Positions 1,333-29,834 of a stretch of 64,000 nucleotides of DNA are shown piece by piece (the first letter of the stretch is position 1; each line of letters opens with the position of its first letter). The DNA is from Eledone cirrhosa. Its lineage: Eukaryota. The translations under genes and the position numbers were made by a program. The notes under the pieces were generated by a model, which was not told the origin of the DNA, did no database searches, and saw only the letters and a list, made by a program, of their open reading frames with translations. The DNA lies in contig OZ024745.1 in assembly GCA_964016885.1 (NCBI GenBank), forward strand, positions 89,032,001-89,096,000, read 5' to 3'.

Positions 1333-1925
1333 TAATTGCCTTATGTTGTTTATTACATAATAATAATAAATAAGCTCTGTTGCCTACATAGAGCACTCTT
1401 TTTTCCTGGACTTTTCCGATGGAATTACTTCATTCACACATATATATATATATATATATATATAGGTTCATGCTGTCATTACCACAGCAGAGGTCCGAAG
1501 AGCTTTTGATTCCAGAGTCGGGCCACATCGATACTGACCAAACCTTCAGCTGATCAATAGCGAAACGTGCGTCACCACTCAATAAACGTAATGAAGACAT
1601 AACAAATCGTCATTTTATTATTATTATTATTTTTGGCGACCTCCGTAGGAAATCGTATTATCGTGAGCTCCACAAAGGTTTGTTGTTTTCAGTTGTTTCA
1701 AATTGCCAGTTATGGAAAATTTTGTTGTTAAGCGTTTATAAGTTCACATATATTGATTTCTGAAAAGGACACTCAATAAAATTTAAATTTCTATTTATCA
1801 AACAAAATATTTCTTTGAAAAAAAACATGGACGACAAATCTCCTGTTTCTAACAGACTAACATCCCCCACCACCACCACCATTGTAAACCTTGCCCCGGT
1901 TGCCAACACTGAAAATATAATTAAT

Positions 1926-2111
1926 TGTTTCTACTTTAGGCACAAGGCCAGCAATTACCTAGTGCATCACTGGTACTTTATTTTATCGACCCCGTAAAGA
2001 TGAAAGGCAAAGTCAACCTCGGCGGGATTTGAACTCAGATCGTAAAGGGACGTAACTATGCTGGAAAGCATGGCGTCCGACCCTCTACCGATAATGCCAA
2101 TCCACCGCCCT
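1926..2111 (-). mobile_element. tRNA-derived SINE inserted into Tx1 copy 1 ORF1
   Basis: A-box TGGCATTATCGG, B-box GAGTTCAAATCC, central GCCTTTCATC..GGGGTCGATAAAATAAAGTACC (Meta-domain-like); 16-bp TSD TGAAAATATAATTAAT at 1910-1925 and 2112-2127. Confidence 0.92.
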
Positions 2112-4082
2112 TGAAAATATAATTAATAGCAGTCTCAATTATTTAGATTTGCCGCATACAGACATGGATTTCCCGCTATTACCAACAACTACAGGTGTTA
2201 AAGCCGCCATCCCCACCTTCACAATGTCAAAAAGAACAACCAACACCACTGATACCACCACCACCACCACCATCACCACCACAGCGACAACAGAAACAAA
2301 AAATAAATTATTATCTCGGGACATCGAAATGGATTCACCCAGAATCGACTCTTCTATGCCGAACATCACTGACATCACCACCACCACCACAACCGAAACT
2401 AAATTAACAATAACAACAACAGCAACAACAACAATGAGAATAACAACAACAACATCAACACCCGCGCAAAACAAAATAAGTCGTTTGCCAAAGCAGCCAA
2501 GAAAAGTGAAACAATCGAGGTAAGCCAGGATAAATTGAATGAAGCCAACCGAAGGGTAAAAATAGATAGGTACAGGGTCAGCCCCCCCCCCCCCACTCAT
2601 CTAATAAAATGGAGCATCGGCGCCTATGCACCGTGTCATATCGCACGATAGACACAAAATCACGCCGAGTGGAACGGGCATCCGAGTCCCAGATACAAAA
2701 AGCTTTGGGACATGTGTGGGCCAAAAAACCCACATCAGATGTGGGCAGAAATATGGAACTGTGGCCGTGTTCTTTGGAACACCACAGGAAGCTAGAGAGC
2801 ACTCCATGGCCCCATTAAGACGTGACGAGTTCACACTCGTCCCAAGCTATTGTGGTCAGAGACTCGTGAAGATCAGGGTGACCCACGTTCCGCCGGCCAT
2901 TGAAATTCCCTGGCTTATGGCTGCCGTCCTCGCCGACATTGAGGCCAACACTAAAATAATTGAGGTATCAAAAGTAAAGCAGGAGAACTGGTCCGGATCT
3001 GGGATGGAGCTCCTGATCCTAGCGGACCAAAATAAAATTGAGGATATTCCAGAGGTGATAGACCTCAATGATGGCAGCCACCTCACCGTAATCGTTGACG
3101 GTAGAGGCTTAGGTGTGTCGTTTGTGGCGAAGGAACCCCCCTTCCCACCAAAAGGATTTCTACCCTAAGGCTAAAAAGTTGGGGCCACCTTTCCTAGCCA
3201 CCCCAGTGACTCAACCATCAAAACTAGCAGCAGAAATGGCAGCAACAACTGTAGCAGCAACAACCCCAGCAACTGTAGCAGCATCAACCACAGCAACTGT
3301 AGCAGCAACAGTGGCAAAACCAACACCTCCACCACCCAACGCGCCAGAACTAGCACCAACGCCTCCACCATCCACCACGCCACAACTAAAACCAACGCCT
3401 GTGGAGGATTTTCCACTTCCCGACCTATCGTAACTGGAGACAGATTGTGTCTGCGAGGAGGAGTTGGAAACTGTATCTGGAAAAAAGAAAAAAAAAGAAC
3501 CCCAAAAAGAAAAAAATCCTCTTCCTTCGCCCTACAAAAACAAAATGCAGGGTGAAACAAACAAACTAACAAAAAGGTTAAGACAGCTATGTCCCCACCC
3601 ACACCACCATCACCAGCCCCATGACCACAAACACCAACATCATCACCATCATTAACCCCAACACCAACATCACCAACACCACAAAAATAACCAACAAGCG
3701 AAACAGAAACAAACTCACAACAAACGCAAAGAAAGCAAAACAACCAAAACGATATAAACTACACAGCATTAAATTTGAACAACAACCAATTATTACACTA
3801 CAGCCAACACAACACCAGCATCACAAAAAGATTTCATAAGACCACAAAAATTCATACCACCTCCACACATACAAATCACTCGCATCACACAGAAAACGTA
3901 CACGACACTAAAATTTAAATTCCCCAAGGACATGGGAGACATCCGACAAACACTCTCCAGGAGGATTTATAAGGACATCCTTCCGGAGGGGGCCACGAGC
4001 AGTGAGAAGGACAGAAAAACCATCCTTCCTCCACGAGAAGTGAAGTAAGTGATGTTTCCCATCTTTTGCCACTCCATTTCAA

Positions 4083-7000
4083 ATGACCTCACTCAGAATA
4101 GGCAACATAAATGCGCGTGGCCTGGGGTCATCATGGAAGAAGAGCCACCTGTTCAACGACCTCAGATCACTAAACATATATGTGGTGGCCATCAGCGAGA
4201 CCAGAATCTCTGAAGCACGAGCCTTCGCACCGATCTTCGGCGGCTACGGTGTATACGCATCTCCTAGCCGTCCTGGATCGGGTGGAGGAGTTGCTGTGCT
4301 TTTTCGGAGAGGCTTGGATCTCGCCATACGGGCCATCTTCCTGGACCTATAAGGTAAGTCGGTGGTGCTGGACGTGACCAGCGGAGACGGGCAAGCTTTC
4401 AGGTTAGAGGCCGTCTATGCCCCGACAGGAGCAGGGCGGCCTGATTTCTTCCGGCGTCTGGAGACCTTTCTTGGAACGTCCCGGTGTTAGTGTTAGTGGG
4501 CGACTGGAACGGGATCTTAGATACACGCTGGGACTGTGTGGGATTAGTGGATAGGGGAGGAGGGTGTAAAAGCCTAGCAAACCTTCTCGGACGGTTTCAA
4601 CTGTCTGACAGCTACCGTCTGGATTTCCCGAATGTGCCGATGTGGACATGGACAAACTGCATCGGGTCATCCAGATCATATCTAGATAGGGTGTTTTGTA
4701 GGGTAACAAATAGGTCTAACATAGGCTGTCCACATTTCAAAATAGTCGACTACACGGACCACAATTTCGTGATCTGTGAGGTTGACTTAGATAGGCTTCA
4801 TAGACAGGGACCCGGCTACTGGAAGCTAAACGCTTTGTTAACAGCGTGCAAGGCTTACAGAGACAGGATTAGCGAATTAGTTAAGCGGGCGTTGACGGGG
4901 GCCATCGTCAACAACAAATGGTGGTTTGCTCTGAAAAGAGCGATTAGAATAGAATCCATTAGGTTTAGTAAGGCTTTAGCAATAGAGAAAAATAGAGCAG
5001 AGGGAGAACTGGTTAGAAAATTAGACGAGACCGACGTACTTGACCAATTCTTCAATGCAAAGCACGAAGGCTGCGTTGTCAGAGCTAGGGTGCGTGCTCT
5101 CAGACACGAGGGGGCGAAAGCCGTTCAATGGGCCCGAGCAGCGGAGGCGCGTCGTGGCAACAAAGCTTCGATCCGGTCTTTGGTGGACCACGACGCGCGC
5201 ATGTTACTCGATCCCGGGCAAATCTGTGAAGCTTTTCAGCGACACGTCGCTCAGCTGTTCGGGGGCAGCGGTGGGCCGGATCGAGGGATGGGATTTAGTG
5301 CCTACCTCGACGGACTGCTGCGGCTCTCGCCAACTGAGGCAGAGTGTTGCGAAAAGCCGATAACAGCCGCTGAAGTACGGGAGGCAATGACTGGCTGCAC
5401 AAGGGGTAAATCGCCTGGTTTGGTTGGTCTGCCCTACGAACTTTACGTACACATGCCAGACTTCTTCGAAGGCCTCTTGGCGGACGTCTACTGCAACTGG
5501 CAACAGAGCGGGAGAATTCCAGCTCTGTGAGCCGAAGAGCGGTGGCGCTGCTGAGAAAGGATCTGAACAAGGAGGATAACATAGATAATTTCAGGCCCAT
5601 AACTCTGCTAAACACAAAGATCAAGATTTTGGCCAAGGTGCTAGCAAAGAGGTTGGCGCTTGTCGTTAGTGGTCTGGTGGGAGAGACGCTGACATGTCCA
5701 TTCCAGACAGATCCATCCACGACAACCTCCACCTCATGAGATACATCGTGGAGAGGGTAGCTAGGGAATCCGGCACGAGTGGGTCCTTGATCAATTTAGA
5801 TCAGTCGAAAGCTTTCGATAGGGTCGACCATCGTTATCTGACGGCAGTCCTGAGGGCGGCTGACTTTGGGCCCGTCTTCAGAGGCTGGATCGCTGCCATG
5901 CACAGCGATATCTGCTCTGTGGTGAGATTGAAAAGTCACCTTACTTAACCGTTCAACATCATGCGCTTGGTCCGCCAAGGATGTCACCTCTCGTCCCTGT
6001 TATACTTATTGACTCTCGAGCCATTACTGCACAAACTGGAGACGTTGAGGGAGGTCCCGCGCGAACTAGGATGCGGAAGATCCATGTCAGCATATGTGGA
6101 CGATGTCACCGTAGTGGTGTCGAACGCCAAACACATTGAGGCGATCGGCACTACACTAAGAGAATATGAAGCGGTGACAGGAGCAATGATCAACCAGGAA
6201 AAGTCGGTGGGCTTGCAGCTCGGCACCTGGAGAGGCAACAGCGTCCAACAGCGTCGTCGGGCGCTGGACGGACGGACCGGTTTAATTGCTAGGGGTCTGG
6301 TTCAGTCCGGACTTCCGGACAAAAACTGGGACGAGGTGACGAGCAGGGTGCCTTCTCTCACCTAGAAATGGGCAGAGAGGAGGCTATCCCTGAAAAGTAA
6401 AGAGGAGGTGGCGAATGCGTACATCGCGTCCGTCATCTACTACTACCTGAGCGTCGTGCCTTGTCCTAAGCCTCGCCTGACTGCGCTGGAACTTTTGCTC
6501 TTTTGCTTTTTGCGGCGGTCCATCTGCTGTCAACACCCGCTACCTGGAGGGCTGGGCACGACGTGGCCGATGATGCGGAGATACCTGCTCAGGCTACACC
6601 TCCACCTCTTCCTTGACGGTGATCAGGTGTGGTCGCCGTTTTCTAGACGCGTCTTTCCCTAGCTCATCTCCTTGACGGAGCTGCAGTCCTGTGTCAAGCG
6701 AAGACCGAGATGGAACGCTTGGAGACTGGAATGTCTTCAGGCGCTCACAGCCCTAGACCAGTCGAGCAATGTGATCGATGGAAACTTCACCTTGGCGTTC
6801 TATAGAGCATTAGTGGAGTGCTACAGAGGAGCTGTGCCAGTTTGGGATAAACTCTACATTCATTGAAGCGCCGTCAGCGAACATGTCCGAGATCCGCGCA
6901 AGGCGACGAAACCGTCCTGCCCGCACTCGTCCAGTGTCCGAACATTGCTGACTTGTGGGTTTATATCGAACACCTGCTGTCGCGTGTAGGACTGAACCGG

Positions 7001-7294
7001 CTATCAGCTGAGTTCATCGTGAGGATTTCCCCGCCTTCTTCCTTTAGCCGCGAAGGGCAGGCAGTTTTTATCTGTCTGATGACCATGGCGAAAGAGATAG
7101 TATGGTGGACGCGTTTGAAAGGGGTGAAGACGAGCACTTACCTCTTCGGTGATGCCCTGATTAACTTTTTCAAATTTCATTTGAAAAGGAAAATTAGGGT
7201 AGAGAGGGAAGTGCTCTCTTCGCAGCATTTTGTTGAAAGATGGTTGAGAGAATCAAGCATGGTCCGAGTAAATACTCTGAGTATGTGCCTGTAA
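4083..7294 (+). pseudogene. Tx1 ORF2 (APE endonuclease, RT, C-terminal CCHC), copy 1
   Basis: LRIGNINARGL, AISETR, VGDWNGILD, SYLDRVF, YTDH (APE); FRPITLLN, LINLDQSKAFDRVDH, VRQGC, SAYVDD (RT); stops, frameshifts and a deletion near 6817. Confidence 0.9.
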
Positions 7295-7576
7295 ATTGAA
7301 GGTGGAAAACAAAGACAGGGCACTTGCCCTGGTGGTCAGGTTCACCGTGGCTTTTTTAATGGGCTTTCTCCACGAATGTCCCTCGGAAGCCTCCACTCTA
7401 TTGGGGAATTTTTCATTGTTTCTTTTTGTTACATCCTCCGTTTTTGTTTTTTTACACGCAGAAATGCCCATTTGCACCGTCCTGTATGTCCTGTATTGTC
7501 CTTAATGTCTTACTTTGTGTAAACCCTTGTGGTTAATAAAGAAAGTATTATTATTATTATTATTATTGGTCTGTTC

Positions 7577-7667
7577 AAATCCTTTCCTTTCATCCTTACC
7601 GGGTCGATAAAATAAAGTACCGGTAATCTACTGGGTAATTGCTGGCCTTGTGCCTAAAGTAGCAACA
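7577..7667 (+). mobile_element. 5'-truncated SINE at the Tx1 copy1/copy2 junction
   Basis: B-box remnant plus SINE 3' half; flanked by direct repeat ATTATTATTGGTCTGTTC (7559-7576, 7668-7685). Confidence 0.85.
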
Positions 7668-7676
7668 ATTATTATT

Positions 7677-10600
7677 GGTCTGTTCGGACGTTCTTTTTGC
7701 TCGCTCCCAGTAAGTCGCTTTATTTGCCTGTTAAAATTATTTGTTGTTAAATATTTCTTGTTGTGTAAGTGATATATGCCCTTAGACTTTGCCCTGTGAA
7801 GGGGAAAGTATAATATTTGGGCCCTTTGGCCCAAATATTTAAACATTTTATTTGAAAAAAAAGAAATATGGCTGAGCCACGCCCCCCAGCAAGCAATATG
7901 TCTGGTGTCTTGTGACAACGGCGTAAAAGTTGAGAGGAGGGTTAGTGAAATTCATGCAGGAGCACCAACAACAAGACCAGTAGCGGCAGCAATAATGGTG
8001 ACGCTGAAAAAGGGGCCATTTCTTTCGCAGGTGTGGGCTGAAATATAGAGACAGTGCTAGTCACGGAGGAGGAGATGGCAGTCGCAAGAGCCATGGTGTT
8101 GAGAAACGAAAATAGAGTTTCCCTGAAACCTCCAACCGATTTCTTCAAAGACCAGCAACTGCGCACGGTGCCTTACCGCACCGTAAGCAAAATGTCAAAT
8201 CGGGTGGAGAGAGCCACGGAGGGCCTTGGAGTGCGACAGGGCACGCAAAACGCACATCACCCGAGGCAAAAAGTATGCCACACTATACGTACTTTTCGCC
8301 ACCCTCCAAGAGGCGAAGACTCACTCTTTGGAAACCTTAAAGAGTGAAGAGATAGTGTTGGTGCCCTCCTACTGCGGACAATTGTGAGTGTCAAAGTGAC
8401 CCAGGTCCCGCCCGACGTGGCCATACCTTGGCTGGCCGCGTCTGTACTGGCTGGAATCGAGAAGACCACCACACTGCAAATACAGAGAATGGGAAGAGAG
8501 AACTGGTCAGGAATAGGCATACAAATGATAATACAGACTGACTAAGGGTGCATCGAAGTCATTCCAGATATCATAGACCTAGAAGAAGGACTCCGACTCC
8601 CTATAAGCGTGGAAGGAAGGCGCCCAAAGTGCTATCTCTGCGAGCAGAAGGGTCACCTCAGGGCAGAAGACAGCCAAGAAGAGGGCTCACCCTCCTTCCG
8701 ACGCATGATCCGCTGCTACCGAGAGCAGGACAGGCAACAGGGGCAGAAGGCCCTTCCATGGTGAGTAGGACGGCAACGTTCGTGGAACCCATACAAAGGC
8801 CACCGAAACTAAAACAGCGGCAGCAGTGACGGCAACACCAACAGTCGCAGTAGCTACACCGTCGGCAAAATCGCCGGAGCGGGAAACACTACCACCACCA
8901 ACAGCAGTGGGGCGCACACCCCTCCCAGACGCCACGGAATCTGACATGGAGTATGAGTCGCGCAGGGAAGTGGCAAACGGTCTGCCACAAAAAACAAAAG
9001 AGGAAAAACACCTTAGCTTCACCCTCCAAAAGTGAAGGCAGACAAAGAGGTCTAAGCTCTGCAAGGAGACTTGCAGCAACACCACCACAAGCAACACTAC
9101 CAACAACAACCACACCAACAACACCAACATGGCAAACACAACAAAACACACACACCCAACAGCAACAAGAAAACAGCAACAAAGTCACCCCCCCCCCCCC
9201 CCCCAAAAAAAAGGTTCACAGCCATAAACATGGCAAATAAAGAACTCTTACAACATATAAAGCAGCACACAGACATCAGAGAAAAAAACTACTACACCCC
9301 ACCAACACCAAGAATTCTCCCGACAAACATAAGCATCGTTGAAATCAAAATAGAACAGTACACTTTTAAAACAAAAATTCCCCAACGCAGTTGGAGACTT
9401 CAGCAGGTCGGTTACCAAGAGGATATACACCGACATCCTCTTGGAAATACCCATGACCAGCCAAAGGGACGGTTCTACTGTACCCTCACCACACGATCAA
9501 GGTAAATGATCCTTTCTCACTTGCCCCGTTTCTCATCCAATATGGCCGTACTTAGAATAGGCAGTACGTGGCCTGGGGTCATCTTGGAAGCAGGGTCAAC
9601 TGCTCAACGACCTCAGGTCACTAAACATAGATGTGCTGGGCATCAACGAGATCAGAATTTCCGAAGCCTTCGCACCGATTTTCTGTGACTACGATGTATA
9701 CTCATCTCCCAGCCGTCCAGGATCAGGAGGAAGGGTGGCAGTGCTTTTTCGGAGAGGCTTGGATCTCGCCATACTGGCCATCTTCCTGGACACAGAAGGT
9801 AAGTCAGTGGTGTTGTACGTGACCTGCAGCGAAGGCAATGTTTTCAGGCTAGTAGCCGTCTACGCCCCAACTGGGGCAGGACGGCCAGATTTCTTCAGAC
9901 GTCTAGAGACCTTTCTTGGAACGTTCCGCACTTTAGTATTAGTGGGCGACTGGAACGGTATCTTAGATGTACGTTGGGATTATGTGGGGCTAGTAGACAG
10001 GGCAGGAGGGTTTCAAAGCCTCAACAACCTGCTCAGACATTTTAAACTGTCTGACAGGTATAGACTGGATTATCCGAATGTGCCAATGTGGACATGAGCA
10101 AACCGCATCGGGTCATCCATTTAGATAGGGTATTCTGTAGGGAAACAGATAAGGCTAGTGTAGGTTGTCCACAATTTAAAGTAGTCGCCTACACGGACCA
10201 CAAATTTGTGATCTGTGAAGTTACTTAGATAGATTCCATAGGCAAGGGCCCGGCTACTGGAAGCTGAACGCGTCGTTTCCGGCGCGCAAAGCTTACAGAG
10301 ACCGGATTAGCGAATTAGTTAAGCGTGCGTTGACGGGTGCGATCGTCAATACCAGGTGGTGGTTTACCCCGAAAAGGGCTGTTAGAGTAGAATCGATAAG
10401 GTTTAGCAGAGGAGTAGTGCCAGAGAAAAATATAGTAGTAGGAGAGTGAGTTAGAAAGCAAGAAGAGGCGTTTAGGAGAGGAATCGCAACCGACGAGCTT
10501 GCGGCGAGATTGGCACCCGACCAATTCTTCAACGCAAAGCATGAAGGCTGCGTTGTCAAAGCTAGAGCGCGTGCTCTAAGACACGAGGGGACGAAAGCCG

Positions 10601-13101
10601 TTCAATGGGCCCGGGTGGTGGAGGCGCGACGTGGCAACAAGTCCACAATTCGGTCTTTGCCTGATCAAAACGGGTGCATGTTGCTCGAATCCAAGCAGAT
10701 GTGTGCGGCTTTTCAACAGCACTTTGGTCAATTTTTGCGAAAGGCCGTTAACAGCAGGTGAAATACGGGAAGCGATGTCTGACTGCACGAGTCGTAAATC
10801 GCCAGGTTTGGATGGTCTGCCCTACGAGCTATATGCGTATATGCCAGACTTGTTCGGCGACCTCTTGGCAGATGTCTACTGTAACTGGCAGCAGAACGGG
10901 AGCATTACCAGTTTTGTGAGCCGGGGAGTGGTGGCGCTGGTGAGAAAAGACCCGAAGAAGGGGGAAGTTATAGACCACTTCAGGCCCATAACTCTGCTAA
11001 ACGCAGAGTTTAAGATTTTGGCCAAGGTGTTAGCTAAGAGATTCGTGGTTGTCGACGGTGATCTGGTGGGAGAGGCACAGAGATGCGCCATCCCGGACAG
11101 ATCCATCCTCCATCTCATGCGATACATCATAGAGAGGGTGGTTAAGGAACCTGGCACGGGTGGGGCCCTGATCAACTTGGATCAATCTAAAGTATTTGAT
11201 AGGGTCGACCATCGTTACCTGGCTGCGGTCCTCGAGGCGGCCGGCTTCGGGCCCGTTTTTAGGGGCTGGATGGCTGCGATGCACAGCGACACCTGCTCGA
11301 TTGTGAGGGTGAATGGTCACCTGTCACAGCCTTTCAGCACCATGCGCTCGGTCCGCCAAGGTTGCTCCCTCTCGTCCCTCTTGTACGTACTGGCCCTAGA
11401 GCCGTTACTGCACAAACTGGAGACGATTTGGCGGGGTCCCACGTGAACTGGGATGCTGGAGATCCGTGTCAGCTTACGCCCATGACGTCACCGTGGTGGT
11501 TTCAATCACCAAACACGTCCAGATGCTCGGCACCGCTCTCAAGGAATACGAAGCGGTGCCGAGCAAAGGTAATCCAGGAAAAGTCGGTGGGCTTGCAACT
11601 CGGCAACTGGAGAGGCAAGTCCATGCCGCCCGACAGCGTCGTGCGGCGCTGGACGGAAGACCTGTTAAATTGCTCGGTATCTGGTACAGTCCGGACCTCC
11701 AGATGGAGAAAAACTGGACCGAGTTTACGAGCAGGGTGGCCTCTCACACCCAGAAATGGGCCGAGAGGAGGTTGTCACTGAAAGGTCGGGCGGAGGTGGC
11801 GAATGCGTACATAACCTCCGTCATCTGCTACGGCCTGACCGTCGTACCTTGCGCCCTCCCACCTCTGACCAAAATAGAGTGCCTTCTTTTCCGCTTTTTG
11901 TGGAATGGACGTGCTCCTATGGTTAGACGATCCATTTGTTGTCAACAAGGAAGACTAGGCATGCCGTGGATGATGATGTCAAACATGCGCTGATGCTGCG
12001 ACATCTCTGGTGCTTCCTTGACGGTGAACAGGTGTGGTCGCCGTTTGCCAGACGCGCTTTTCCCCAGCTCGTCTCCTTGACGGAGCTGCAGTCCTGGATC
12101 AGGAAAAGACCGAGGGATAGCGCTTGGAAGCTGGAATGTCTCCAAGCGCTCATCGCCCTCTACCAGCTGGGCACTAGTATCGGTGGGACATCCACCTCGG
12201 CGTTCTAAAGAGGGCTAGGGGAGGGAAATAGCAACGACGTTATCGGGGAGACCCTGGGCGTCGAAGACGATCAGCTGTTCGCTCTCTTCAAGAGAACTTT
12301 CAGACCGGGGCCTATGGACAACTGCCAGACATCCCTGGCCTGACAGTGCTACTGGGGAGCGTTGCCGATTCGGGATGAGCTCTACAAGCTAGGAGGTTCT
12401 GTCAGCCGAACCTGTCCGCGATGCGCGCAGGGCGACGAAACCGTCCTGCACGCACTCGTTCAGTGCCCGAGGATTGCTGTCTTGTGGAGCTATGTCGAAG
12501 AGCTGCTGTCGCGTGTAGGACGGATCCGGTTATCGACTGAGTCCATTGTATAGTTAGCTTCTCCCTCCTCCTTTAAATAGGAGCAAGGGCAGGCAGTTTT
12601 CATCTGCCTGGTGGCCATGGCGAAAGAGATTGTGTGGTGGACAAGGTTGAAAGGGTTGAAGACTGACATTTTCCTCTCCAGCCAATCCCTGATTAACTTT
12701 TTCAAGTTTCATTTGAAGAGGAAAATCAGGGTGGAGAGTGCTGTCTTCTAGTAAGTTTGTTGAAAGGTGGGTGAAAGTAGCGAGTCTGGTCCGAGTGAAC
12801 GGGCCCGCTCTGAATATACGCCTGTAGACTGAGGAGTGGAAAAAATTGAGAGAAGGCGCTTGCCCTGGTGGTCAGGGTGGCCGTGGTCTTTTGTGTGGTT
12901 TTCACCACGAGTGACCCTCGGAGGTTTCCCCACTTCTTGGGAAATTTTGTTGTTTGAAATTTGTTGGATTTCTAGCCCGATTTTGTTATAACCTGTTTAC
13001 ACGACCAAAACCCACTTTGTATAGTCCTGTACTGTTCTGTGCCGTCTCTAATGTTTTTCTTCGTGTCAACCCGTGTGGCCAATAAAGAAACTATTATTAT
13101 T
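7677..13101 (+). mobile_element. Tx1/L1-clade copy 2, full length, decayed
   Basis: Leader from GGTCTGTTCGG, ORF1 ATG 7868 with zinc-knuckle remnant GRRPKCYLCEQKGH (~8615-8660), ORF2 9542-12827, AATAAA 13081, (ATT)n tail. Confidence 0.9.
9542..12827 (+). pseudogene. Tx1 ORF2, copy 2
   Basis: VYAP/VGDWNG (APE); KSPGLDGLPYELY, FRPITLLN, VRQGC, SAYAHD (RT, catalytic motif mutated); CPRCAQGDETVLHALVQC; multiple disruptions. Confidence 0.9.
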
Positions 13102-13104
13102 AAT

Positions 13105-13290
13105 GTGGATTGGCAGTATCAGTAGAGAGTCGGACGCCATGCTTTGACGCATGGAGTTACGGCCCTTGCCATTCTGAGTTCAAATCCCGCCGACGTTAAC
13201 TTTGCCTTTCATCCTTACGGGGTCGATAAAATAAAGTACCAGTAATGCACTGGGTAATTGCTGGCTTTGTGCCAAAAGTAGAAACAATTA
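13105..13290 (+). mobile_element. Near full-length SINE at the Tx1 copy2/copy3 junction
   Basis: Same family as 1926-2111; embedded in (ATT)n on both sides. Confidence 0.92.
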
Positions 13291-13304
13291 TTTTTATTAT
13301 TATT

Positions 13305-16300
13305 GGTCTGAACGGATGTATTTCGCTCGCTTCCAGTAAGTCGCTTTATTTGCCTGTTAAAATTATTTGTTGTTAAATATTTCTTGTTGTGTAAGGGATA
13401 TAAGCCCTTAGAGTTTGCCCCGTGAAGGGGAAAGTATAATATTTGGGCCTTTTGGCCCAAATATTTGAACTTTCTTTTTACAAGTTAAAAAATTTACTGA
13501 AAAAAAAAAACATGGCTGAGCCACGCCCTCCAGCAACATGTCTGCTGTCGTACGACAACGACGTAGAAGTTGAGAAGAGCGCTACAGCGAAATTAACACA
13601 CATTGATAACACAAACACCACCACAAGCAATGTAAACAAAGACACCAATGATACCAATGAGAACTCTAATTGTGAAAAAAATGAAAGTAACAGCGACAAC
13701 GAAAATACAGATAACAAAAAAATAATGACAAATGCAACAATATCAACACCACTAAAATAAAAACAAATACCAACTGCACCGAGAACAACGATGGCAACAA
13801 AGACAACAATGATAACAGCGACAGTGATAACAACAACACAAACAAGAACAACTACAACGACAACAACACCCCCAACGAAAACAAGAAGAATACATTCGCT
13901 GCGGCAGCAGCAAAAAAGAGGCCATGCTTCAACATGGACCTCTCAAAGAAAGATGAAAAGTTGGCGCAGGAATGGAAGCTCATCAAGCAAGAGAAAACCT
14001 GGGCCAACTTAACTGTCCCGGTAGAAGCTATTGAGGCAGTGGAGCGCAGAACGGTGCATTATAGATGCATCTCAGCACAAACCAAAAGGGCAGCTATAAT
14101 CCCACAAGAAGATGTCGAAGTCGCGCTGAGGTGCATCAGAGAAGACACCGAATACATAGAGAGGGGCAGACAGTACGGCACCATTTCGGTGTTGTTCAAG
14201 TCATAAGCCCTCGCTATGAAACACGCTAAGACTCCTTGCAAAACCAGTAAGGTCATAATGTACCCCTCCCACGTGGGAAAAATAACGGCCTGTCTCCGCA
14301 TTCCCAGAATCACCCCAGGACTTGACATGTGGTGGCTTCTGGGCTGTGTGATTGTGGAGGGGACGGATACCGTCCCTATAGAAGTGACCAGAACGGCCAT
14401 AGAGGACTGGTCCGGGGTTGACCAGGAGATCCTTCTCCAGATCAGGCCCGAGAATGTGAAGACAATCCCGCACCACATCCGCATTCAGAATGGGACGGTC
14501 ATTCACATTATGACCCAAGGCAAAAGGCCGCAGTGTTTTGTTTTTGGGGGAAAAAAACCCATTTGCGAGCCTTCTGCCCTCCACTGCTGAAAGAGGCAAG
14601 GGGTGGAAAGGCTCCACTGCTGCCAAGGCCGGGGCGAGGACCACAACCAACACCACCACCGGCAAAACCACCAACAACAACACCAATAGAAAGACCACCA
14701 CCAACATTGACCACCCAGGGGGGAAACGAGGAAAGCTGTCAAATTCCCTCTCCCCCCTAAAATACACACACCAATAAAACCATAAACATACATACAGACA
14801 CACTTACAGACACAGACCCCTCATCTACCAGTAGTGAAGATGAGGGAAAACCAAAATCCCCCAAAATACAAAAAAAGGAAACCCAAAAAGAAAAAAAAAA
14901 ATCAACAAAGCACAAAATCACCCACTAACATCTCTCCAATAACACCAACATCAACACCACCATCACCATCACCAGAATCCCCCAAACGCAAACAACCTAA
15001 ACAGACGCAAGAACAAATATACACACAAACATCTGAAACCACAGACACCGCACTCAAAACAAACACAGACACAACCGAAACAATACCACCAAAACCATCA
15101 CCATCACAGCCACGCAAACAAATAAAATCACACCAACAAAAAATACAAAACTTCGTGCTCGTCAGGAGGGCCAACAAGGAACTGATGGCCCTCGTAGCAC
15201 GAAGTTAAAATATACAGAAAGAGGGGGACATTTTTAAATCGAGCACATTTCGCGTGCGGAAAGATTTGGTTCTGGTGCGAATGTCGATCGAATTATACAA
15301 AGAAATACGAGACAGCTTTCCTCGGGACGTGGGAACCCCGAACGTAAAACAAACTTCAAGACTTTTAAAGGGGTTCCCAAAAGAAACCCCACCAACTATG
15401 GAGGTCGAACCACCCGACATTAACAAGAGCCTGGAAGGTAAGGAAAACTTTCCTCTCTCTCTCTTTTTAACCTGCCAACATGGCCGTATTAAGAGTAGGA
15501 TGTTTAAATGTTCGAGGCCTGGGATCGTCTTGGAAGCAGGGTCACCTGCTCAACGACCTCAGGTCTCTAGAAATGGATGCAATTGCCGTCAGCGAGACCA
15601 GGATTTCCGTCACGCGTACACTAGCCCCCATTTTCGACGACTATCAGATCTTTGCATCTGTTAGCCGGCCGGATATGGGAGGCGGGGTGGCAGTGCTGTT
15701 TAGGAAAGGCCTGGATCTCGAGGTAAGGTCGATCTTCCGGGACCCGGACGGGAAGTTGGGGGTCTTGGACGTGAACAATAACGATGGTAATCCTTTAGAC
15801 TGGTGGCCGTCTATGCTCCTAATGGGACAGGACAGCCGGACTTCTTTAGACGCCTGGAAGCCTTTCTGGGTTCGTCTCGCCCTTGACTGTTAGCGGGAGA
15901 CTGGAATGACATCTTAGACTCACGCTGGGACTGTGTGGGAGTATCCGATAGGAGTGGGGGGTGCAAAAGCCTCAAGAATCTGATCAGCCAGTTCCAACTG
16001 TCTGACAGGTACCGACTAGATTTCCCTAATAAGCCAGTGTGTACCTGGACTAACCGCATAGGGTCATCTAGATCGTATATAGACAGGATATTCATTAGGA
16101 AAAAAACCCAGAAATAGTGTAAGCTGTCCACATTTTGAAACGGTCGTCTATTCAGATCACAAGTTTGTGATCTGTGTGGTCGACCTAGATAAGACGCGTA
16201 GGTTAGGACCTGGTTACTGGAAGCTAAACATTTAAATTCCGGTACGTAAGGCTTATAGGGACCAGGTCAACAATTTAGTTAAGAAAAATTTGACAGGGGG

Positions 16301-18690
16301 AGTCGTCAACAATAGATGGTGGGGAGCTCTCAAAAGGGAGATTAGAATAATGTCGATAGAGTTTAGCAAAGAAGTAGCGTTAGAGAAAAATAGAAAGGAG
16401 GGGGAGTTGGTAGTTAAGTTAGACGAGGCTATAGGTAGTGGCATTACAACTGACGTGCTAGCGGCGAGAATGGCATTAGACCATTTCTTCAATGCGAAAT
16501 ACGAAGGTTGCATTGTCAGAGCTAAGGCGAGTGCTCTGAGAAACGAAGGAACCAAAGCTGTTCGATAGGGCCGAGTGGCAGAGGCGCAGCGTGGTAATAA
16601 AACCACGATTCTGTCTTTGACGGACCGAGACGGACACGAGCTGAGCTATTCCAAGAGGATGTGTGAGGCCTTTCGCCAACATTTTGCTCGGTTGTTCGGG
16701 GGAAGTAGCGGGTCAGAGATGGTGGCGGACTTCAGTCTCTACCTCGATGGCTTGACGCAACTCTCGGCGGCTGGCGCTGGGCGCTGCGAAAGGCCAATTA
16801 CTTCAGCCGAAGTACCTGGAAGCTGTCCTCGGGGCGGCTGGCTTCGGCCCCGTCTTCAGAAGCTGGATCGCTGCAAAGCACAGCGACACCTGCTCGATGG
16901 TCAAAATTAATGGCCACCTCTCGGAACCGTTTGAGGTCTCCCGATCGGCCCGTCAAGGGTGCCCTCTCTCCTCCCTTCGAGGCTTTACTGCGGAAGCTGG
17001 AGCTGTTGCAGGGCATCCCGCTCGAACCGGGACGCGGAAAGGCTGTGTCGGCTTATGCGGACGACATCACCGTGATGGTGTCGGACACCTCAGAAGCGAG
17101 GTGGTCGGCAACTTATTGGAGGAATATGAAAGGTTGACGGGAGCAAAACTTAACCCGGAATAGTCGGTGGGCTTGCAACTCGGCACCTGGAGAGGCAAGT
17201 CCATGCTGTTCAACAGCGTCGTTAGGCGCTGGACGGACGGACCTGTAAAGTTGCTAGGGGTTTGGTTCGGGCCAGACCTCCAGGTGGATAAGAATTGGGA
17301 CGAGGTGACGGGCAGGGTAGCCAGTCTCACCCAGAAATGGGCTGGGATGAAGCTATCACTGAAAGGTCGGGCGGAGGTGGCGAATGCGTACATCGCGTCT
17401 GTCATCTACTACCGTCTGACCGTCGTCCCTTGCCCCCGTTCGCGCCTCGCCATCTTGGAGCGGCTCCTCTTCAAATTATTGTGGAGGGGTCAGTTTCCGC
17501 TGGTGAGGCGGTCCATCTGCTGCTAGTACCCTCTACGTGGAGGGCTAGGCATGTCGTGGCTAATGATGCGCAGGCACGCGCTGAGGCTGCAGCATCTCCA
17601 GATATTCTGCCTAAACGGTGAACAGGTGTGGTCGCCGTTTGTCAGACGGGCCTTTCCGCAGCTCGTTTCTTTGACTGAGCTGCAGTCCTGGGTCAAGAGG
17701 AGACCGAGACTAGGTGACTGGCATCTGGAATGTTGCGAGGCACTCACTGCCCTCTACCAGGCGGGCAATGCAGTCAGTGGAACTTCCACTCTCGTGTTCT
17801 ATAGAGGATTAGTGGTGGGCAAGTGCGACGACGCCCTCGGAGAGGCTCTGGGAGTCAACGAAGTCGAACTAATCAGTCTGTACCGGAGGACTTTCGAGCC
17901 GGGGACGATGGATAATTTCCAAAAATCCCTCGCTTGGCAGTGCTACCGGGGTCACTGCCGGTTCGAGATAAACTCTACAGGCACGGAAGCGCTGTCAGAC
18001 GGTCCTGCCCGAGATGCGCGCAGAGCGACGAAACCGTTCTGCACGCACTCGTCCAGTGTCCGTGCATTATTGACTTGTGGAGTTATGTTGAACAGCTGTT
18101 GTCGCGTGTAGAACGGATCCGGCTATCGACCGAGTCCATAGTGAAGATCGATCCGCCGCCTTCTTTAGGCTAGAAAGGGCAGGCAATTTTCCTCTGTCTG
18201 GTGGCAGTAGCGAAAGAGGTTGTATGGTGGGCGAGATTGAAAGGACTGAAGACAGACACTTTTCTCTTCGGCCAATCCCTCATCAACTTTTTCACGTTTC
18301 ACTTGGAGAGGAAGGTGAGGGTGGAGAGAGAAGTGCTGCCCCCCAGTACATTTGCTGAAAGGTAGAAGAATGTGGCGAGAATGGCCCGTGTGAGTGGGCC
18401 TACTCTTGTCATGCAGTTGTAGGTAGGTAAATTTGAAGAGGAGAGGGGTGCCCTTCCAGGGTGGTCTCGAAGCGTCGGGTCGTTCAGGACTTGTGGGGTA
18501 CCTGAGCGAACCCTAGGTGGTCATCCCCCCCTATTGGGGAATTTTTTCTTGTTGTAATTTTATTGTTACTTTATTGTTACTTTGTTATTGTTACTTTGTG
18601 TAAAACCCCACTGTCCCAGTCTTGTGTATTGTCCCCTATATGTCGGCCCTTGTGGCCAATAAATGAAATCATTATTATTTATTATTATTT
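13305..18690 (+). mobile_element. Tx1/L1-clade copy 3, divergent subfamily with an internal RT deletion
   Basis: Leader nearly identical to copy 2; ORF1 ATG 13512; ORF2 15480-18422 jumps from ITSAEV to YL.AVL near 16815; AATAAA 18658; (ATT)n tail. Confidence 0.9.
15480..18422 (+). pseudogene. Tx1 ORF2, copy 3
   Basis: MAVLRVGCLNVRGLG, AVSETR, SYIDRIF, SAYADDIT, CPRCAQSDETVLHALVQC. Confidence 0.9.
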
Positions 18691-18691
18691 T

Positions 18692-21600
18692 TGAATGCTA
18701 TGGTTGACGGAGGCTCGTTTCTGTAAGGTATTGTAAATTTTGACCGCTATAACAATTGTAAATTGTTTAAAACTTTATCCAAATTGTAGACAAAAACACC
18801 CTCCTCCTCGCGAGAGGGGTCTTTCTGCACGTTATTTGGCCCTTCGGGGTTAAATAACCGCTTATTGGGGTTTTGTGCCCAATATTTATTTTAAACCCAA
18901 AAAAAACATGGCGACGAATAAGAATTTTCATAGGTCACTCCCACTCATTCCGTCTTCTTCTTCCTCAATCCTCACTACAGCAGAGAGAAGATTGTCTCTC
19001 TCCCTCCGTTCTCTTTCGCAAGCGACGCCAGTAAAGAAAAATCACGTAGAAAGCGTGCAACATTTCTCCACAACGGCGAAAAAGGTGTGCGGGAAATACG
19101 AAAACCCATTTCATTCGTCTGATGTCATGAATAATAGCAGTAGCAGCCGTAATAACAGCAGCACCAGCAACAGTGACAAGGAAAACAACAGTAGCAACCG
19201 CAAAAGCATCAGCAGCAGCATAAACAACAACAGCATTAGCAGCAACAGCAACAACAACAGCAGCAGCAGCAACAACAACAACAACCACAGCAACAGCGGT
19301 CGCGGCAGTAGTCGTAGTACCTGCAGCAACAACAAAAGTAACAGCAGCTCTGACGACAACAACAACAACAACAGCAGCAGCAGCAAATAAAAACCAATCT
19401 CGTTTGCAGGTATCGCAAAGAACCTGGAAACCATCCTCATAACAAATGAGGAATTACAGGAAGCGAAGAAGATGATGACGAAAACCGGACACCGAGCAAT
19501 CTGCAAGGCAGCCGAAATATTTTTCGAAACCCAACAGCACTGTACGGTCACTACCGTAGATTAAGCACAAAATCCCGTAGGGTTGAAAGAGCCACAGAGG
19601 CTCAAATACAAAAAGCCTTAGGGTCTGTGTGGCAGCGGAAAACGCACATCACCCCAGGCAAGAAATATGCTACCGTAGACGTGCTTTTTGCCACACCCCA
19701 GGAGGCAAAGGCTCAATCCTTAGTGACCCTAAGGAGCGAGGAAATGGTGTTGGTGCCCTCATACTACGGGCAAAAAATTGTGAAGGTGAAACTGACCCAC
19801 GTCCCCGTCCCCCCGGGATGGCCCCTTCTTGGCTGGCCGCGTCTGTCCACGTCGGAATCGAGGACTAAACAACTGTACTGCAAGTACAAAAAAAAGTAAG
19901 AGAAGATTGGGTCGGCACCTCCATTGAGATGTTAATCCAAACCAACCAGGAGTGCATCGAAGCTATCCCGGATGTGTTAGACTTCGATAACGGCACTCAA
20001 CTGCCCATAAGTGTTGAGGGCAAACGCCCGAAATGCTTTCGCTGTGGTTCGAAGACTCACCGCAGAGCCTTCTGCACCTAGGCCCCACGGCTACCAGCAA
20101 CAGGACAAGCGGCAACCAGGAACGATAGGTCCGTGGCACCCATACGCACGCCACGGAAATCAAGAAGAGCAGCAGCAGTGGAAGTATTAACAACAACAAC
20201 AGTAATACCAAATGTAGCTGCAACAGTGACTCCACTGCAAACATCACCAACAACAACAAGTGAAAGAGTGGAGCTGGTACCCCTCCCCGACCTCACAGAA
20301 TCAGACATGGAGTGTGAGGTGGGAGAGGGATGGCAAAAGGTCGTAAGAAGGCACAAACGCAGAAGCAGCGCATCGTCGCCTTCGAAAAGGGAGGAAAGAA
20401 ATGAAAAAAGGGTAAAGGCTACTGCAAAGAGACTCACAGCAGCAACACCACCAACACCATCACCACCCACACTAGCACAACCATTACCACCGGCGACAAC
20501 CCCACCGCCAACAACAACAACACCTTCAACACCACCACCGTAAGCACCAACATCGCAAACACAACAACAAAACACACACACCCAGCAACAACGACAAGAA
20601 AATAGCAGAACCACACCCCACCCCCAGAAAAACAAATGCACGGCAATAAATACACACAACAAGAAACTAATGACTTACATAATTGAACACACAGACATTT
20701 CACAGCACGACTACATAATACCAGCACCAATCAAAACGCCAACGAACATTTGACTGCTAAAATAGCACAGAAACAATACACAAACATTAAAACGAAATTC
20801 CCCAACGCAGTTGGTGATTTCAGAGACCTAGGAGGGACTCTCAACCGGAGAGTATATTCGGACATACACATAGAAGAGCCGACGACCAGCTGAAGGGACG
20901 ATTCAATGGTCCCTTCACCAGACGATCAAGTGAAAAGTGATGGAGAAACCATCCTTCCTCTACGAAAATTACGGTAAGTGGTCTTTCCCATCTTTTCCAC
21001 TCCATTTTAAACATTACCTCACTCAGAATAGGCAGCATAAATGCGCGTGGCTTGGGGTCGTTATGGAAGTAGGGCCACCTGCTCAACGACCTCAGGTCAC
21101 TAAACATAGATGTAGTGGCCATCAGCGAGAACAGAATTTCCGAAGCACGGGCCTTAGCACCGATCTTCGGCGGCTACGATGTGTACGCATCTCCGAGCCG
21201 TCCTGGATCGGGAAGAGGAGTTGCTGTGCTTTTTCGGAGAGGTTTGGATCTCGTCATACGGGCAATCTTCCTGGATCCAGAGGGTAAGTTGCTGGTGCTG
21301 GACGTGACCAGCGGAGACGGGCAAGCTTTCAGGCTAGTGGCCTTCTATGTCTCTCTCAAGAACAGGGCGGCATGATTTCTTCCGGCGTCTGTAGACCTTT
21401 CTTGGAACGTCCCGCTCTTTAGTGTTAGTGGGCGACTGGAACGGGATCTTAGATGCACGCTGGGACTGTGTGGGATTAGCGGATAGGGGTGGAGGGTGCA
21501 AGAGCCTCACCAACCTACTCAGGCTTTTTGAACTGTCTGACAGGTACCGATTGGATTTCCCGAATGTGCCAATGTGGACTTGGACAAATCGCATAGGGTC

Positions 21601-24600: not shown

Positions 24601-24687
24601 CGTCCTGTATTGTCCTGCACTGTCCTTAATGTCCACTTTATGTAAACCCTTGTGGTTAATAAAGAAATCATTATTATTGTTGTTATT
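18692..24687 (+). mobile_element. Tx1/L1-clade copy 4, full length, decayed
   Basis: ORF1 ATG 18908, CCHC knuckle GKRPKCFRCGSKTHRRAFC (~20018-20075); ORF2 ~21013-24419 with start mutated to ATT; AATAAA 24658; (ATT/GTT)n tail. Confidence 0.9.
21013..24419 (+). pseudogene. Tx1 ORF2, copy 4, closely similar to copy 1 ORF2
   Basis: Complete APE-RT-CCHC motif series including VRQGCPLS and SAYADDVT; several stops and frameshifts. Confidence 0.9.
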
Positions 24688-28290: not shown

Positions 28291-28329
28291 TAACACACAT
28301 AAACAAACAAACACACAGGCAGAAAGGGC

Positions 28330-29276: not shown

Positions 29277-29280
29277 AATG

Positions 29281-29548
29281 TCGGTGGATTGAAAGTATCG
29301 GTAGAGGGTCGGATGCCATGCTTTGACGTATAGAGTTACGGCCCTTGCCATTCTGAGTTCAAATCCCGCAGTATCGGTGGAGGGTCGGACGCCATGCTTT
29401 CCAGCATAGTTACGTCTCTTTACGATCTGAGTTCAAATCCCGCCGAGGTTGACTTTGCCTTTCATCCTTACGGGGTCGATAAAATAAAGTACCAGTAATG
29501 CACTGAGTATTTGCTGGCCTTGTGCCTAAAGTACAAACAATTATTATT
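29281..29548 (+). mobile_element. SINE with a duplicated tRNA head (two subfamilies joined)
   Basis: Head to B-box 29281-29368, then a second head and complete body to the ATT tail. Confidence 0.88.
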
Positions 29549-29834
29549 TTTTTTTTTTCTTTCTTTTGCCTTTGTCATGACAATATATATTGAAAAGATA
29601 TATCGTACTGTCTTGAAATTATTCTCAAGAAGCCAATTTTTTTAATGATGACAGGAATATTTGAAAGAAATCGATAAATTGTAAGAATCTATATTATATA
29701 ATCAAGGAATGACCTCCTTTCTTAATACAACCCAACTAATCCACCTTTAGAATATCTACATGTCATTTTCCTTCACGATAATGTAATGTCACCTACATAT
29801 AGATATCTACACCACATTCTAATGTTTTTAGCCA

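What the first reader, a model, noticed from the sequence alone, without database searches (positions are those of the whole stretch)
7677..13600. Modular mosaicism among the four Tx1 copies (leader, ORF1 and ORF2 group differently)
Seen: copies 2 and 3 share a nearly identical ~190-nt leader plus the first ~70 nt of ORF1, yet copy 3's ORF1 body and ORF2 are the most divergent. Copies 1 and 4 have very similar ORF2 and 3' UTR but unalignable leaders. Copy 2's ORF1 C-terminal region (LPDATESDME) matches copy 4 (LPDLTESDME). Breakpoints fall in low-complexity (ACA/AGC)n tracts. Inference: leader and ORF1 swapping by template switching or by recombination within arrays, analogous to 5' UTR replacement in mammalian L1.
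Basis: seen in the sequence. Interest (0 to 1): 0.7.

Follow-up and report, generated by a model that had tools for sequence, protein, structure and literature searches.

The report
Two chimeric retrotransposons in octopod array
Four decayed jumping-gene copies stacked head-to-tail in an ATT repeat, likely of an octopus-type genome, include two true hybrids: one likely copied its front end from its neighbour on insertion, and the other was likely made by RNA splicing between two elements, which would be a little-noticed way for such elements to swap parts.

Summary
The mosaicism is real. Four decayed Tx1-like non-LTR retrotransposons (c1-c4) stand head-to-tail in an (ATT)n tract; the nearest named relatives are octopod. 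c2 and c3 share a 5' block with 26/269 mismatches, although a rooted ORF2 tree rejects a c2+c3 clade (AU p=4e-5). c1 and c4 differ at 59/420 fourfold sites in ORF2 but 32/45 in ORF1, where c4 is closer to c2. Single-tree simulations never reproduced either pattern.

The two chimeras differ in kind. c2's c3-like block has the geometry and neutral decay of a ~280-nt target-site duplication of its downstream neighbour, so it is probably a one-off, not a family-wide promoter swap. c4's junction (20928-20930) is not in a low-complexity tract. It sits on a splice-donor-like motif found at the ORF1 end of all four copies, joined to a CAG in c1-type sequence, so a spliced two-element RNA is the likeliest source.

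Neither route is proven. No eukaryotic DNA collection was available to find other copies, and the acceptor is weak. Module exchange is known for L1, CR1 and L2; a splice route between stacked target-specific elements would be a new variant.

The parts
1615..1629 (+). (TTA)5 tract at the left edge of the array, with no element 3' end upstream; likely a target remnant
1630..7545 (+). Copy c1: leader, ORF1 (ATG 1827, stop 4046-4048, SINE inside), ORF2 4083-7293 (APE, RT, C-terminal region), 3' UTR with AATAAA; 6 premature stops in ORF2
1912..2126 (-). SINE inserted in c1 ORF1 with a 16-nt target duplication
4000..4048 (+). c1 ORF1 tail ('B unit'); CAG|TGAG at 4002/4003 is the point where c4's c1-like part begins
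4045..4096 (+). GTAAGT + pyrimidine tract + CAG: intron-like ORF1/ORF2 spacer of c1 (52 nt); splicing predicted, not shown
7546..7676 (+). (TAT)n tract with a 5'-truncated SINE (7577-7666) flanked by a duplication of (ATT)n plus c2's first 9 nt; the SINE therefore arrived after c2 had its present 5' end
7677..7952 (+). c2 5' block (leader + first ~28 codons), duplicate of c3 13305-13595
7953..13092 (+). c2 body: short linker remnant, ORF1 core closest to c4, ORF1 stop 9506-9508, ORF2 9542-12826, 3' UTR; 6 premature stops in ORF2
9456..9507 (+). c2 ORF1 tail ('A unit') ending CAAG|GTAAAT; donor-like GT at 9502
13093..13304 (+). (ATT)n tract with a full-length SINE (13100-13297) between c2 and c3
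13305..18672 (+). Copy c3: leader, ORF1 (ATG 13512), donor-like GT at 15438, ORF2 15480-18422 with a 461-nt deletion in RT, 3' UTR; most divergent copy; 8 premature stops
18690..20930 (+). c4 5' module: own leader and a c2-related ORF1 (ATG 18908) ending in an A unit (20885-20930)
20928..20930 (+). c4 junction: c2-like sequence ends at CAAG, c1-like sequence starts at TGAAAAG
20931..24670 (+). c4 3' module of c1 type: B unit, ORF1 stop 20975-20977, donor-like GT at 20974, spacer, ORF2 21013-24419, 3' UTR; 7 premature stops
24690..29212 (-). Unrelated RT + restriction-like-endonuclease element (open frame 24981-28187, 1068 aa), tail-to-tail with c4 in the same ATT/TAA tract; closes the array on the right

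Best explanation
Four different decayed Tx1-like retrotransposons stand head-to-tail between (ATT)n tracts, and two are hybrids: c2 is likely a 5'-truncated insertion that duplicated about 280 nt of its downstream neighbour c3 as a long target-site duplication, and c4 likely descends from an RNA in which a c2-related ORF1 was spliced onto the ORF1 tail and ORF2 of a c1-type element. Shown: the array, the two junctions, the conflict between modules, the donor-like motif at all four ORF1 ends, and the coincidence of c4's junction with it. Inferred: (1) the elements target (ATT)n, so newcomers land next to residents; (2) for c2, first-strand synthesis was primed at the ATT tract just upstream of c3 and stopped in the ORF1 linker, and the second-strand break lay about 280 nt inside c3, so c3's leader and first codons appear twice; (3) for c4, at some other locus a read-through (or trans-spliced) RNA joined the ORF1-end donor of one element to a cryptic CAG 42 nt before the ORF1-end donor of a c1-type element; the product kept a complete ORF1, spacer, ORF2 and 3' end, and so could retrotranspose and perhaps found a family.
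For: Mosaicism: the rooted ORF2 tree is (c3,P0001),(c2,(c1,c4)) with starred support. AU rejects c2+c3 (p=3.7e-5) and c2+c4 (p=0.001) in ORF2. Fourfold sites c1/c4: ORF1 32/45 vs ORF2 59/420. c2/c3: leader 21/189 vs 3' UTR 107/238 mismatches. One tree with any of 7 rate scalings gave 0 of 2000 matches per scaling, for each pattern. Breakpoint scans for c4 and c2 gave 0 of 2000 permutations. c2 as a duplicate of c3: adjacency and order are those of a target-site duplication, read directly from the sequence. Mismatch of 9.7% equals two copies' decay (4-6% each from stop counts, wide intervals). The shared codons differ at 2 synonymous and 11 non-synonymous sites. Decay-type transitions are split 9 vs 7 between the copies. 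c2 7958-7995 resembles c4's AGC/AAC linker (14 of 1000 shuffles), not c3's (827 of 1000). With the 4-nt extra removed, the c3-type N-terminus is out of frame with c2's body. The flanking SINE was not co-duplicated (76/84 to c3's SINE, 75-76/84 to three others). c4 by splicing: c4 alone has two ORF1-tail units, A (9/45 mismatches to c2) and B (9/39 to c1), and A vs B differ at 25/45. The junction is placed at 20928-20930 with posterior 0.89, i.e. at c2's CAAG|GTAAAT and c1's CAG|TGAG. The donor-like motif ranks among the top 2-8 of about 300 GT sites in each copy, is followed by a 79-83% pyrimidine tract (top 0.04-0.5% of windows) and is kept in two different reading phases. No remainder of an interrupted element lies downstream of c4.
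Against: One locus only; no other genomic copies could be examined. c2 is only an 80%-identical proxy for c4's real ORF1 donor. The splice reading was found after looking at the junction, and the diagonals were fixed by hand. The acceptor is weak: the 20 nt before c1's CAG are purine-rich and hold other AGs. A 2-nt AG microhomology fits end-joining or a template jump equally well. Splicing at the spacer is not shown and would give in-frame ORF1-ORF2 fusions at the first AG in c1/c4 but not in c2/c3. In ORF1 protein the ORF2-type quartet is not rejected (AU p=0.13). Distances do not fix the direction of the ORF1 swap: c1/c2 ORF1 is also saturated at fourfold sites (39/51 vs 102/341 in ORF2). 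c2's short N-terminal region (156 nt vs 383-495) is weak evidence, because relatives with 35- and 59-residue N-termini exist. P0200, a c3-like ORF1 (66% over 119 aa), has an unrelated N-terminus, which fits family-level N-terminal turnover. Long duplications are rare (1 of 25 ZfL2-2 insertions, PMC2666801 passage). ORF2 itself is not perfectly tree-like: the control LRT is significant (2dL 56.3, 16 df) and c1 shows a weak shift near 4891-4900 (0 of 2000), with no discrete tract.
Confidence: 0.45

Rival explanations
1. Both chimeras arose by reverse-transcriptase template switching (or microhomology joining) between RNAs of co-active families during target-primed reverse transcription.
For: All four copies have similar decay (6, 6, 8, 7 ORF2 stops), so the families were active at about the same time. 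Both junctions are staggered or imprecise. Strand switching is one of three models for mosaic mouse L1 (PMC3600994 passage). It predicts zero master divergence for c2/c3, as seen.
Against: It does not predict that c2's 5' donor is its immediate downstream neighbour (3 of 12 ordered pairs), nor that c4's junction falls on the conserved GT motif to within 3 nt.
Confidence: 0.27
2. Both are ordinary members of replicating recombinant families, as with L1 5' UTR and ORF1 recruitment; the exchange happened in master elements elsewhere, whatever the molecular route.
For: c4's ORF1 stays in frame across the junction. c4's ORF2 branch shows purifying selection (private pS 0.112 vs pN 0.032, p=8e-5). 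B differs from c1 at 9/39 vs 292/3123 in ORF2 codons. P0200 shows N-terminal turnover in c3-like ORF1. For c4 this is compatible with the best explanation.
Against: For c2: no divergence beyond decay, a neutral pattern of change, an out-of-frame join and duplication geometry. None of 150 ORF1 relatives carries the MAEP N-terminus, but none is close to c2, so that test had no power.
Confidence: 0.15
3. DNA-level deletion or unequal exchange inside this array fused the 5' part of one copy to the 3' part of the next, removing about 5.5 kb each time.
For: Head-to-tail homologous copies invite it. These copies carry many deletions (up to 461 nt). An R1/R2 5'-3' fusion is reported in D. simulans (PMC2718515 passage).
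Against: Homology-driven exchange would be in register and most likely within the conserved ORF2, not staggered by 42 nt at the ORF1 end. It needs two extra vanished copies, one of them a near-twin of c3.
Confidence: 0.09
4. No exchange: modules evolve at different rates on one tree, or the pattern is an assembly artefact.
For: The unrooted leader quartet equals the ORF2 quartet. ORF1 is more divergent than ORF2 at fourfold sites in all six pairs.
Against: 0 of 2000 simulations at each of 7 scalings. Rank reversals between modules. The shared block differs at 9.7% with a decay signature in both copies, so it is not a collapsed or duplicated read.
Confidence: 0.04

Closest known systems
Tx1-clade microsatellite-targeting elements (Kibi, Koshi; crocodilian (TTCC)n/(TTTC)n Tx1; PMC4494074 passages) and octopus 'L1-Tx1' (80 families, 56 Mb in O. 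vulgaris; PMC13282606 supplement row)
   Same: Two ORFs, APE-RT ORF2, insertion in simple repeats, cephalopod host group.
   Different: The repeat here is (ATT)n. Clade placement could not be tested against Tx1 references. The passages read describe no module exchange between Tx1 families.
Mosaic mouse L1 families and 5' UTR recruitment (PMC3600994 and PMC5381506 passages)
   Same: 5' UTR and ORF1 come from one lineage and ORF2 from another; co-active families.
   Different: Those are family consensuses of dispersed elements. Here single copies in a target-site array are seen, c2 looks like a one-off, and the leaders are short. [quoted passage not shown]
Reticulate ORF1 evolution in CR1/L2 (PMC4120745 passages)
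   Same: Whole-ORF1 transfer with a junction near the ORF1/ORF2 boundary.
   Different: The route proposed there (5'-truncated insertion into another element) leaves a remainder downstream, which is absent here. The transfers there are ancient and have no visible junction.
Splice-made L1 chimeras: exon-L1 fusions (PMC13174262 passages) and SpIREs (PMC5860796 abstract)
   Same: The 5' partner ends at a splice donor and is joined to a cryptic acceptor, then retrotransposed.
   Different: There the 5' partner is a host exon, or the splice is within one L1 and usually a dead end. Here both partners would be retrotransposons and the product keeps both ORFs.
Tandem R1 arrays and long target-site duplications (PMC2718515 and PMC2666801 passages)
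   Same: Newcomers insert into the regenerated target at a resident's 5' end; LINE insertions can duplicate more than 1 kb of target.
   Different: R1 arrays are of one family with 14-bp duplications. Here the inferred duplication captures a different family's leader.

Membership tests
L1 group (L1/Tx1) non-LTR retrotransposon | ORF2 with N-terminal APE endonuclease and RT | tested here: met
   Pfam Exo_endo_phos, RVT_1 and zf-RVT on window stretches; one shared frame of 1140 codons; motifs listed
L1 group (L1/Tx1) non-LTR retrotransposon | RT closer to L1 than to R2 | tested here: met
   Tested on relative P0001 (72-75% aa to the copies): 174 bits to L1 ORF2p vs 88 to R2. Only L1 and R2 types were among the 10 matches, so CR1, RTE and I were not compared.
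L1 group (L1/Tx1) non-LTR retrotransposon | Separate ORF1 with RRM and CCHC knuckle | tested here: inconclusive
   zf-CCHC E=0.025, below cut-off. Model at pLDDT 57; RRM proteins lead the Foldseek list but none reaches E<=0.001. Atlas lead RRM_1 in 18% of one cluster.
Tx1 clade | RT phylogeny places it with Tx1/Kibi/Koshi/Keno | not testable with these tools
No named Tx1 reference, Repbase or RTclass1 was available; the tree has unnamed outgroups.
Tx1 clade | Target-sequence preference for a repeat | tested here: inconclusive
   4 of 4 copies have ATT repeats at both ends, but at one locus, and tail cannot be told from target except at c1's 5' side.
L1-type family-level 5' UTR/ORF1 replacement | Module trees or depths conflict | tested here: met
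L1-type family-level 5' UTR/ORF1 replacement | The recombinant structure is shared by many independent copies | not testable with these tools
   No eukaryotic DNA collection; protein relatives too distant.
Splice-derived chimeric retrotransposon | 5' partner ends exactly at a 5' splice site | tested here: met
   Junction 20928-20930 matches c2 CAAG|GTAAAT, 8 of 9 consensus positions; proxy donor; consensus motif recalled.
Splice-derived chimeric retrotransposon | 3' partner begins after a 3' splice site with a pyrimidine tract | tested here: inconclusive
   CAG present, upstream purine-rich.
Splice-derived chimeric retrotransposon | The spliced RNA is observed | not testable with these tools
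   No RNA data.
Long target-site duplication | The same sequence lies directly 5' of the insert and directly 3' of its tail, diverged only by neutral decay | tested here: met
   7677-7952 vs 13305-13595, a later SINE set aside.
Long target-site duplication | Empty-site allele with a single copy of the block | not testable with these tools
   No orthologous locus available.

The most novel reading that the evidence does not exclude
Octopod Tx1-like elements carry a conserved 5' splice site at the end of ORF1. Because they pile up head-to-tail in (ATT)n microsatellites, read-through transcripts are spliced from one element's ORF1 into the next element's ORF2. The spliceosome thus shuffles promoter-plus-ORF1 modules between families and founds new replicating lineages such as c4; long target duplications (c2) are a second array-specific route. 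The 52-61-nt intron-like spacer may also control ORF2 expression.
Probability: 0.25. Interest if true: 0.72.

Novelty: new variant of a known kind. Interest (0 to 1): 0.5.

Why it matters
How LINEs acquire new 5' ends and ORF1s is a standing question. The models in print (DNA recombination, heteroduplex at the insertion site, strand switching; PMC3600994 passage) are hard to tell apart because old junctions are erased. This array keeps two junctions at base resolution, and each points to a testable route that depends on target-site stacking. With 80 L1-Tx1 families annotated in O. vulgaris, a genome-wide count of junctions on the ORF1-end GT would settle it quickly. It also warns that single full-length-looking copies such as c2 can be local hybrids that mislead consensus building.

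Tried and rejected
Unrooted quartet tests: uninformative for the leader, which has the same topology as ORF2 and rejects nothing. ORF1 prefers 13|24 without rejecting 14|23 (DNA p-AU 0.39; protein 0.13). The ORF1 C-terminal block is unresolved.

SINE-mediated conversion or co-duplication of SINE plus leader: rejected (the SINE's own duplication copies c2's version of the first 9 nt).

Local nested insertion for c4: rejected, because no remainder lies downstream.

An AGTGA microhomology for c4: dropped, because the c2-type end reads CAAGGTAAA and only AG is shared.

A splice origin for the c2 junction: no GT at the end of the shared block.

A further tract inside ORF2: no discrete tract; scans gave 0, 75, 1132 and 1230 of 2000 for c1, c2, c4 and c3.

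Word-index protein searches for ORF1 found nothing. The exhaustive profile search found 501 relatives; the 150 listed were all examined. None had c1-, c3- or c4-type N-termini above shuffle level, and the best to c2/c4 cores were under 50% identical.

Other blanks: Atlas search of c3's N-terminus; PDB sequence searches for ORF1 and for a frameshifted c4 stretch; Rfam and tRNA scans. The codon comparison used a start one base off and was redone. The Fisher tests used approximate site counts and are replaced. The O. vulgaris repeat paper's one supplement held no match to two short motifs. A cluster look-up could not be made, so names for P0001 and the fifth element stayed unchecked.

Ten paper searches listed no paper on module exchange among Tx1 families. 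Novelty of the splice route is therefore untested.


Full report
Setting. Positions 1615-29274 hold one interrupted ATT/TAA microsatellite. It contains four plus-strand elements (c1 1630-7545, c2 7677-13092, c3 13305-18672, c4 18690-24670), two SINEs between them, and a fifth unrelated element on the minus strand. Each of the four has a short AT-rich leader, an ORF1, a short spacer, an ORF2 with APE, RT and C-terminal zinc region, AATAAA and ATT repeats. The four ORF2s align in a single frame of 1140 codons. All are dead, with 6, 6, 8 and 7 premature stops, which is about 4-6% decay each with wide intervals. The best named ORF2 relatives are from Argonauta hians (57% and 76%) and a cuttlefish (44%), so the host is inferred to be an octopod. 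A close relative, P0001, scores 174 bits to L1 ORF2p and 88 to R2. The label Tx1 is plausible but was not tested against references.

Observation. Module identities: leader c2/c3 0.89, others 0.44-0.58; ORF1 core c2/c4 0.71, c1/c4 0.60, c1/c2 0.58, c3 pairs 0.43-0.46; ORF2 blocks c1/c4 0.88-0.91, c2/c4 0.78-0.81, c2/c3 0.70-0.76; 3' UTR c1/c4 0.88, c2/c3 0.55. c1's leader is weakly alignable to c2's and c3's (1 and 2 of 500 shuffles); c4's is not alignable to any (47-115 of 500). The description holds, except that the breakpoints are not inside low-complexity tracts.

Is it exchange? Rooting does. With 14 database proteins the ORF2 tree is (c3,P0001),(c2,(c1,c4)). On 12 of those 18 rows, AU rejects c2+c3 (3.7e-5), c2+c4 (0.001) and c2+c3+P0001 (0.003). 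At fourfold sites c1/c4 differ at 32/45 in ORF1 and 59/420 in ORF2. Simulations on the ORF2 tree with 7 rate scalings gave 0 of 2000 matches each, for both patterns. Against a clean picture: ORF1 exceeds ORF2 at fourfold sites in all six pairs, c1/c2 strongly so (39/51 vs 102/341). Unlinking branch lengths is significant even among ORF2 and 3' UTR blocks (2dL 56.3, 16 df), though it rises to 270.4 with the leader and 160.1 with ORF1 (20 df). Older swaps are possible.

The c2/c3 block. It runs from the first leader base to about codon 28 (7952/13595), with 26/269 mismatches. That is what two copies' decay gives. The shared codons differ at 2 synonymous and 11 non-synonymous sites, and decay-type transitions are split 9 to 7, with 10 transversions, so there is no sign that two masters diverged under selection. 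The block sits directly before c2's body and, a later SINE aside, directly after c2's tail: the geometry of a target-site duplication. After the junction c2 resembles the end of c4's AGC/AAC linker (14 of 1000 shuffles; c3 827, c1 117). Read in c3's frame the N-terminus does not meet c2's ORF1 core in frame, though a further indel could hide an original in-frame join. The SINE before c2 is no closer to the SINE before c3 than to others, and it duplicated c2's own first 9 nt, which excludes SINE-driven copying. Precedent: R1 elements insert into the duplicated target at a resident's 5' end (PMC2718515 passages), and a 1228-bp duplication was seen in 1 of 25 ZfL2-2 insertions (PMC2666801 passages). 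Against: such events are rare; short N-termini occur naturally in relatives; and P0200, a c3-like ORF1, has another N-terminus, so family-level turnover exists. My split for c2: local duplication 0.5, template switch to a c3-type RNA 0.2, family-level recruitment 0.2, array deletion 0.1.

The c4 junction. c1, c2 and c3 have one ORF1-tail unit; c4 has two: A, like c2's (9/45 mismatches), then B, like c1's (9/39). A and B differ at 25/45, about as much as c1's and c2's units in register (29/45). Three of four listed relatives with a comparable tail are short like c1-c3; P0121 is long. c4 is therefore most simply the recipient, although distances alone do not fix the direction. The switch maps to 20928-20930 (posterior 0.89). 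On the c2 side this is CAAG|GTAAAT; on the c1 side CAG|TGAG. All four copies carry GTAAG or GTAAA at the ORF1 end, ranking among the top 8 of 293, 4 of 326, 2 of 292 and 2 of 312 GT sites. In each it is followed by a 79-83% pyrimidine tract (16/5892, 2/5385, 12/5334, 30/5951 windows as rich) and AG 52-61 nt downstream. The motif is kept in phase 2 in c1/c4 and phase 1 in c2/c3, which suggests an RNA-level constraint. The junction thus reads as a splice from one element's donor to a cryptic acceptor 42 nt before the next element's donor. The fused ORF1 is in frame, c4's ORF2 branch shows purifying selection, and c1/c4 ORF2 dS 0.168 exceeds dN 0.079, so c4's ORF2 came from a sister subfamily of c1 or evolved on after the swap. 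Against: a proxy donor, post hoc recognition, a weak acceptor, and AG doubling as microhomology. My split for c4: splicing 0.5, template switch or end-joining 0.35, DNA deletion 0.1, other 0.05.

Comparison with what is known. 5' UTR recruitment and inter-family recombination in mouse L1 (PMC3600994, passages), its apparent absence among short non-mammalian L1 UTRs (PMC5381506, passages), ORF1 transfer in CR1/L2 (PMC4120745, passages), 5' ends shared by unrelated LINEs (PMC4758252, passages and section 10), exon-L1 chimeras ending at splice donors (PMC13174262, passages) and SpIREs (PMC5860796, abstract) cover the general phenomenon. Tx1 elements that target microsatellites are known (PMC4494074 and PMC4640811, passages). 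L1-Tx1 and Dong-R4 are abundant in octopus (PMC13282606, passages and its one supplement searched; PMC8967140 and PMC9115989, passages). PMC2861651 (passages) gave only a reference title on long R9 duplications. The locus works like L1 mosaic formation; membership in family-level replacement could not be tested. Ten searches listed nothing on Tx1 module exchange, but none used splicing terms.

Verdict. The finding is a real, base-resolved mosaic and a new variant of a known kind. One chimera is probably a local accident; the other carries a splice-like junction that makes a long-standing mechanistic question directly testable in octopus genomes and RNA data. Interest 0.5.

Noticed in passing
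window 24690-29212 (-), ORF 24981-28187: Element with an open 1068-aa frame: RT plus RHD and PD..D endonuclease-like motifs and a zinc region, closer to R2 than L1. It lies in TAA repeats, tail-to-tail with c4. Looks like Dong/R4 (TAA targeting of Dong is recalled) and much younger than c1-c4.
   Followed up: partly
window 4045-4101, 9502-9560, 15438-15498, 20974-21031: Intron-like ORF1/ORF2 spacer in all four copies. Removal at the first AG would fuse ORF1 to ORF2 in frame in c1/c4, and at a later AG in c2/c3. c3's ORF1 has no stop at this point.
   Followed up: partly
window 7766-7840, 13392-13466, 18830-18888: Leaders end in hairpins before an A-run and the ATG: a 12-bp stem with a 4-nt loop in c2/c3 and a similar one in c4, although the leaders do not align; fold z about -2.4 for c2/c3, -1.1 for c4, +0.6 for c1.
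   Followed up: partly
window 1912-2126(-), 7577-7666, 13100-13297, 29277-29367, 29368-29552, 43405-43603, 46607-46775(-), 47524-47692(-), 47752-47920(-): Nine copies or fragments of one ~195-nt SINE, mostly beside ATT-like repeats; resemblance to octopus OK/OR SINEs is recalled, not tested.
   Followed up: partly
window 4083-4900 vs 21013-21830: c1/c4 identity is lower in the endonuclease region (0.84-0.91) than in tether/RT (mostly 0.92-0.96), and a scan finds a shift at 4891-4900; possible minor older exchange, no discrete tract.
   Followed up: partly
window 35996-38144 (+): Remnant with DUF7041 and a weak aspartyl-protease match, probably a decayed LTR-retrotransposon gag/protease region.
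   Followed up: no
window 32068-32393 and 32400-33278 (-): A 95-bp tandem repeat (3.4 copies) next to an RT fragment with DUF6451.
   Followed up: no
window 48578-64000: 27-bp satellite, about 571 copies, 90% matches, running off the window end.
   Followed up: no
window 46464-46869/47609-48014 and 44007-44389/44745-45127: Near-identical local duplications: 406 nt direct at 99.8% and 383 nt inverted at 98.7%; recent, or assembly-related.
   Followed up: no
protein P0200: c3-like ORF1 (66% over 119 aa) with an N-terminus unrelated to c3's but of the same length, hinting at N-terminal turnover between families.
   Followed up: partly
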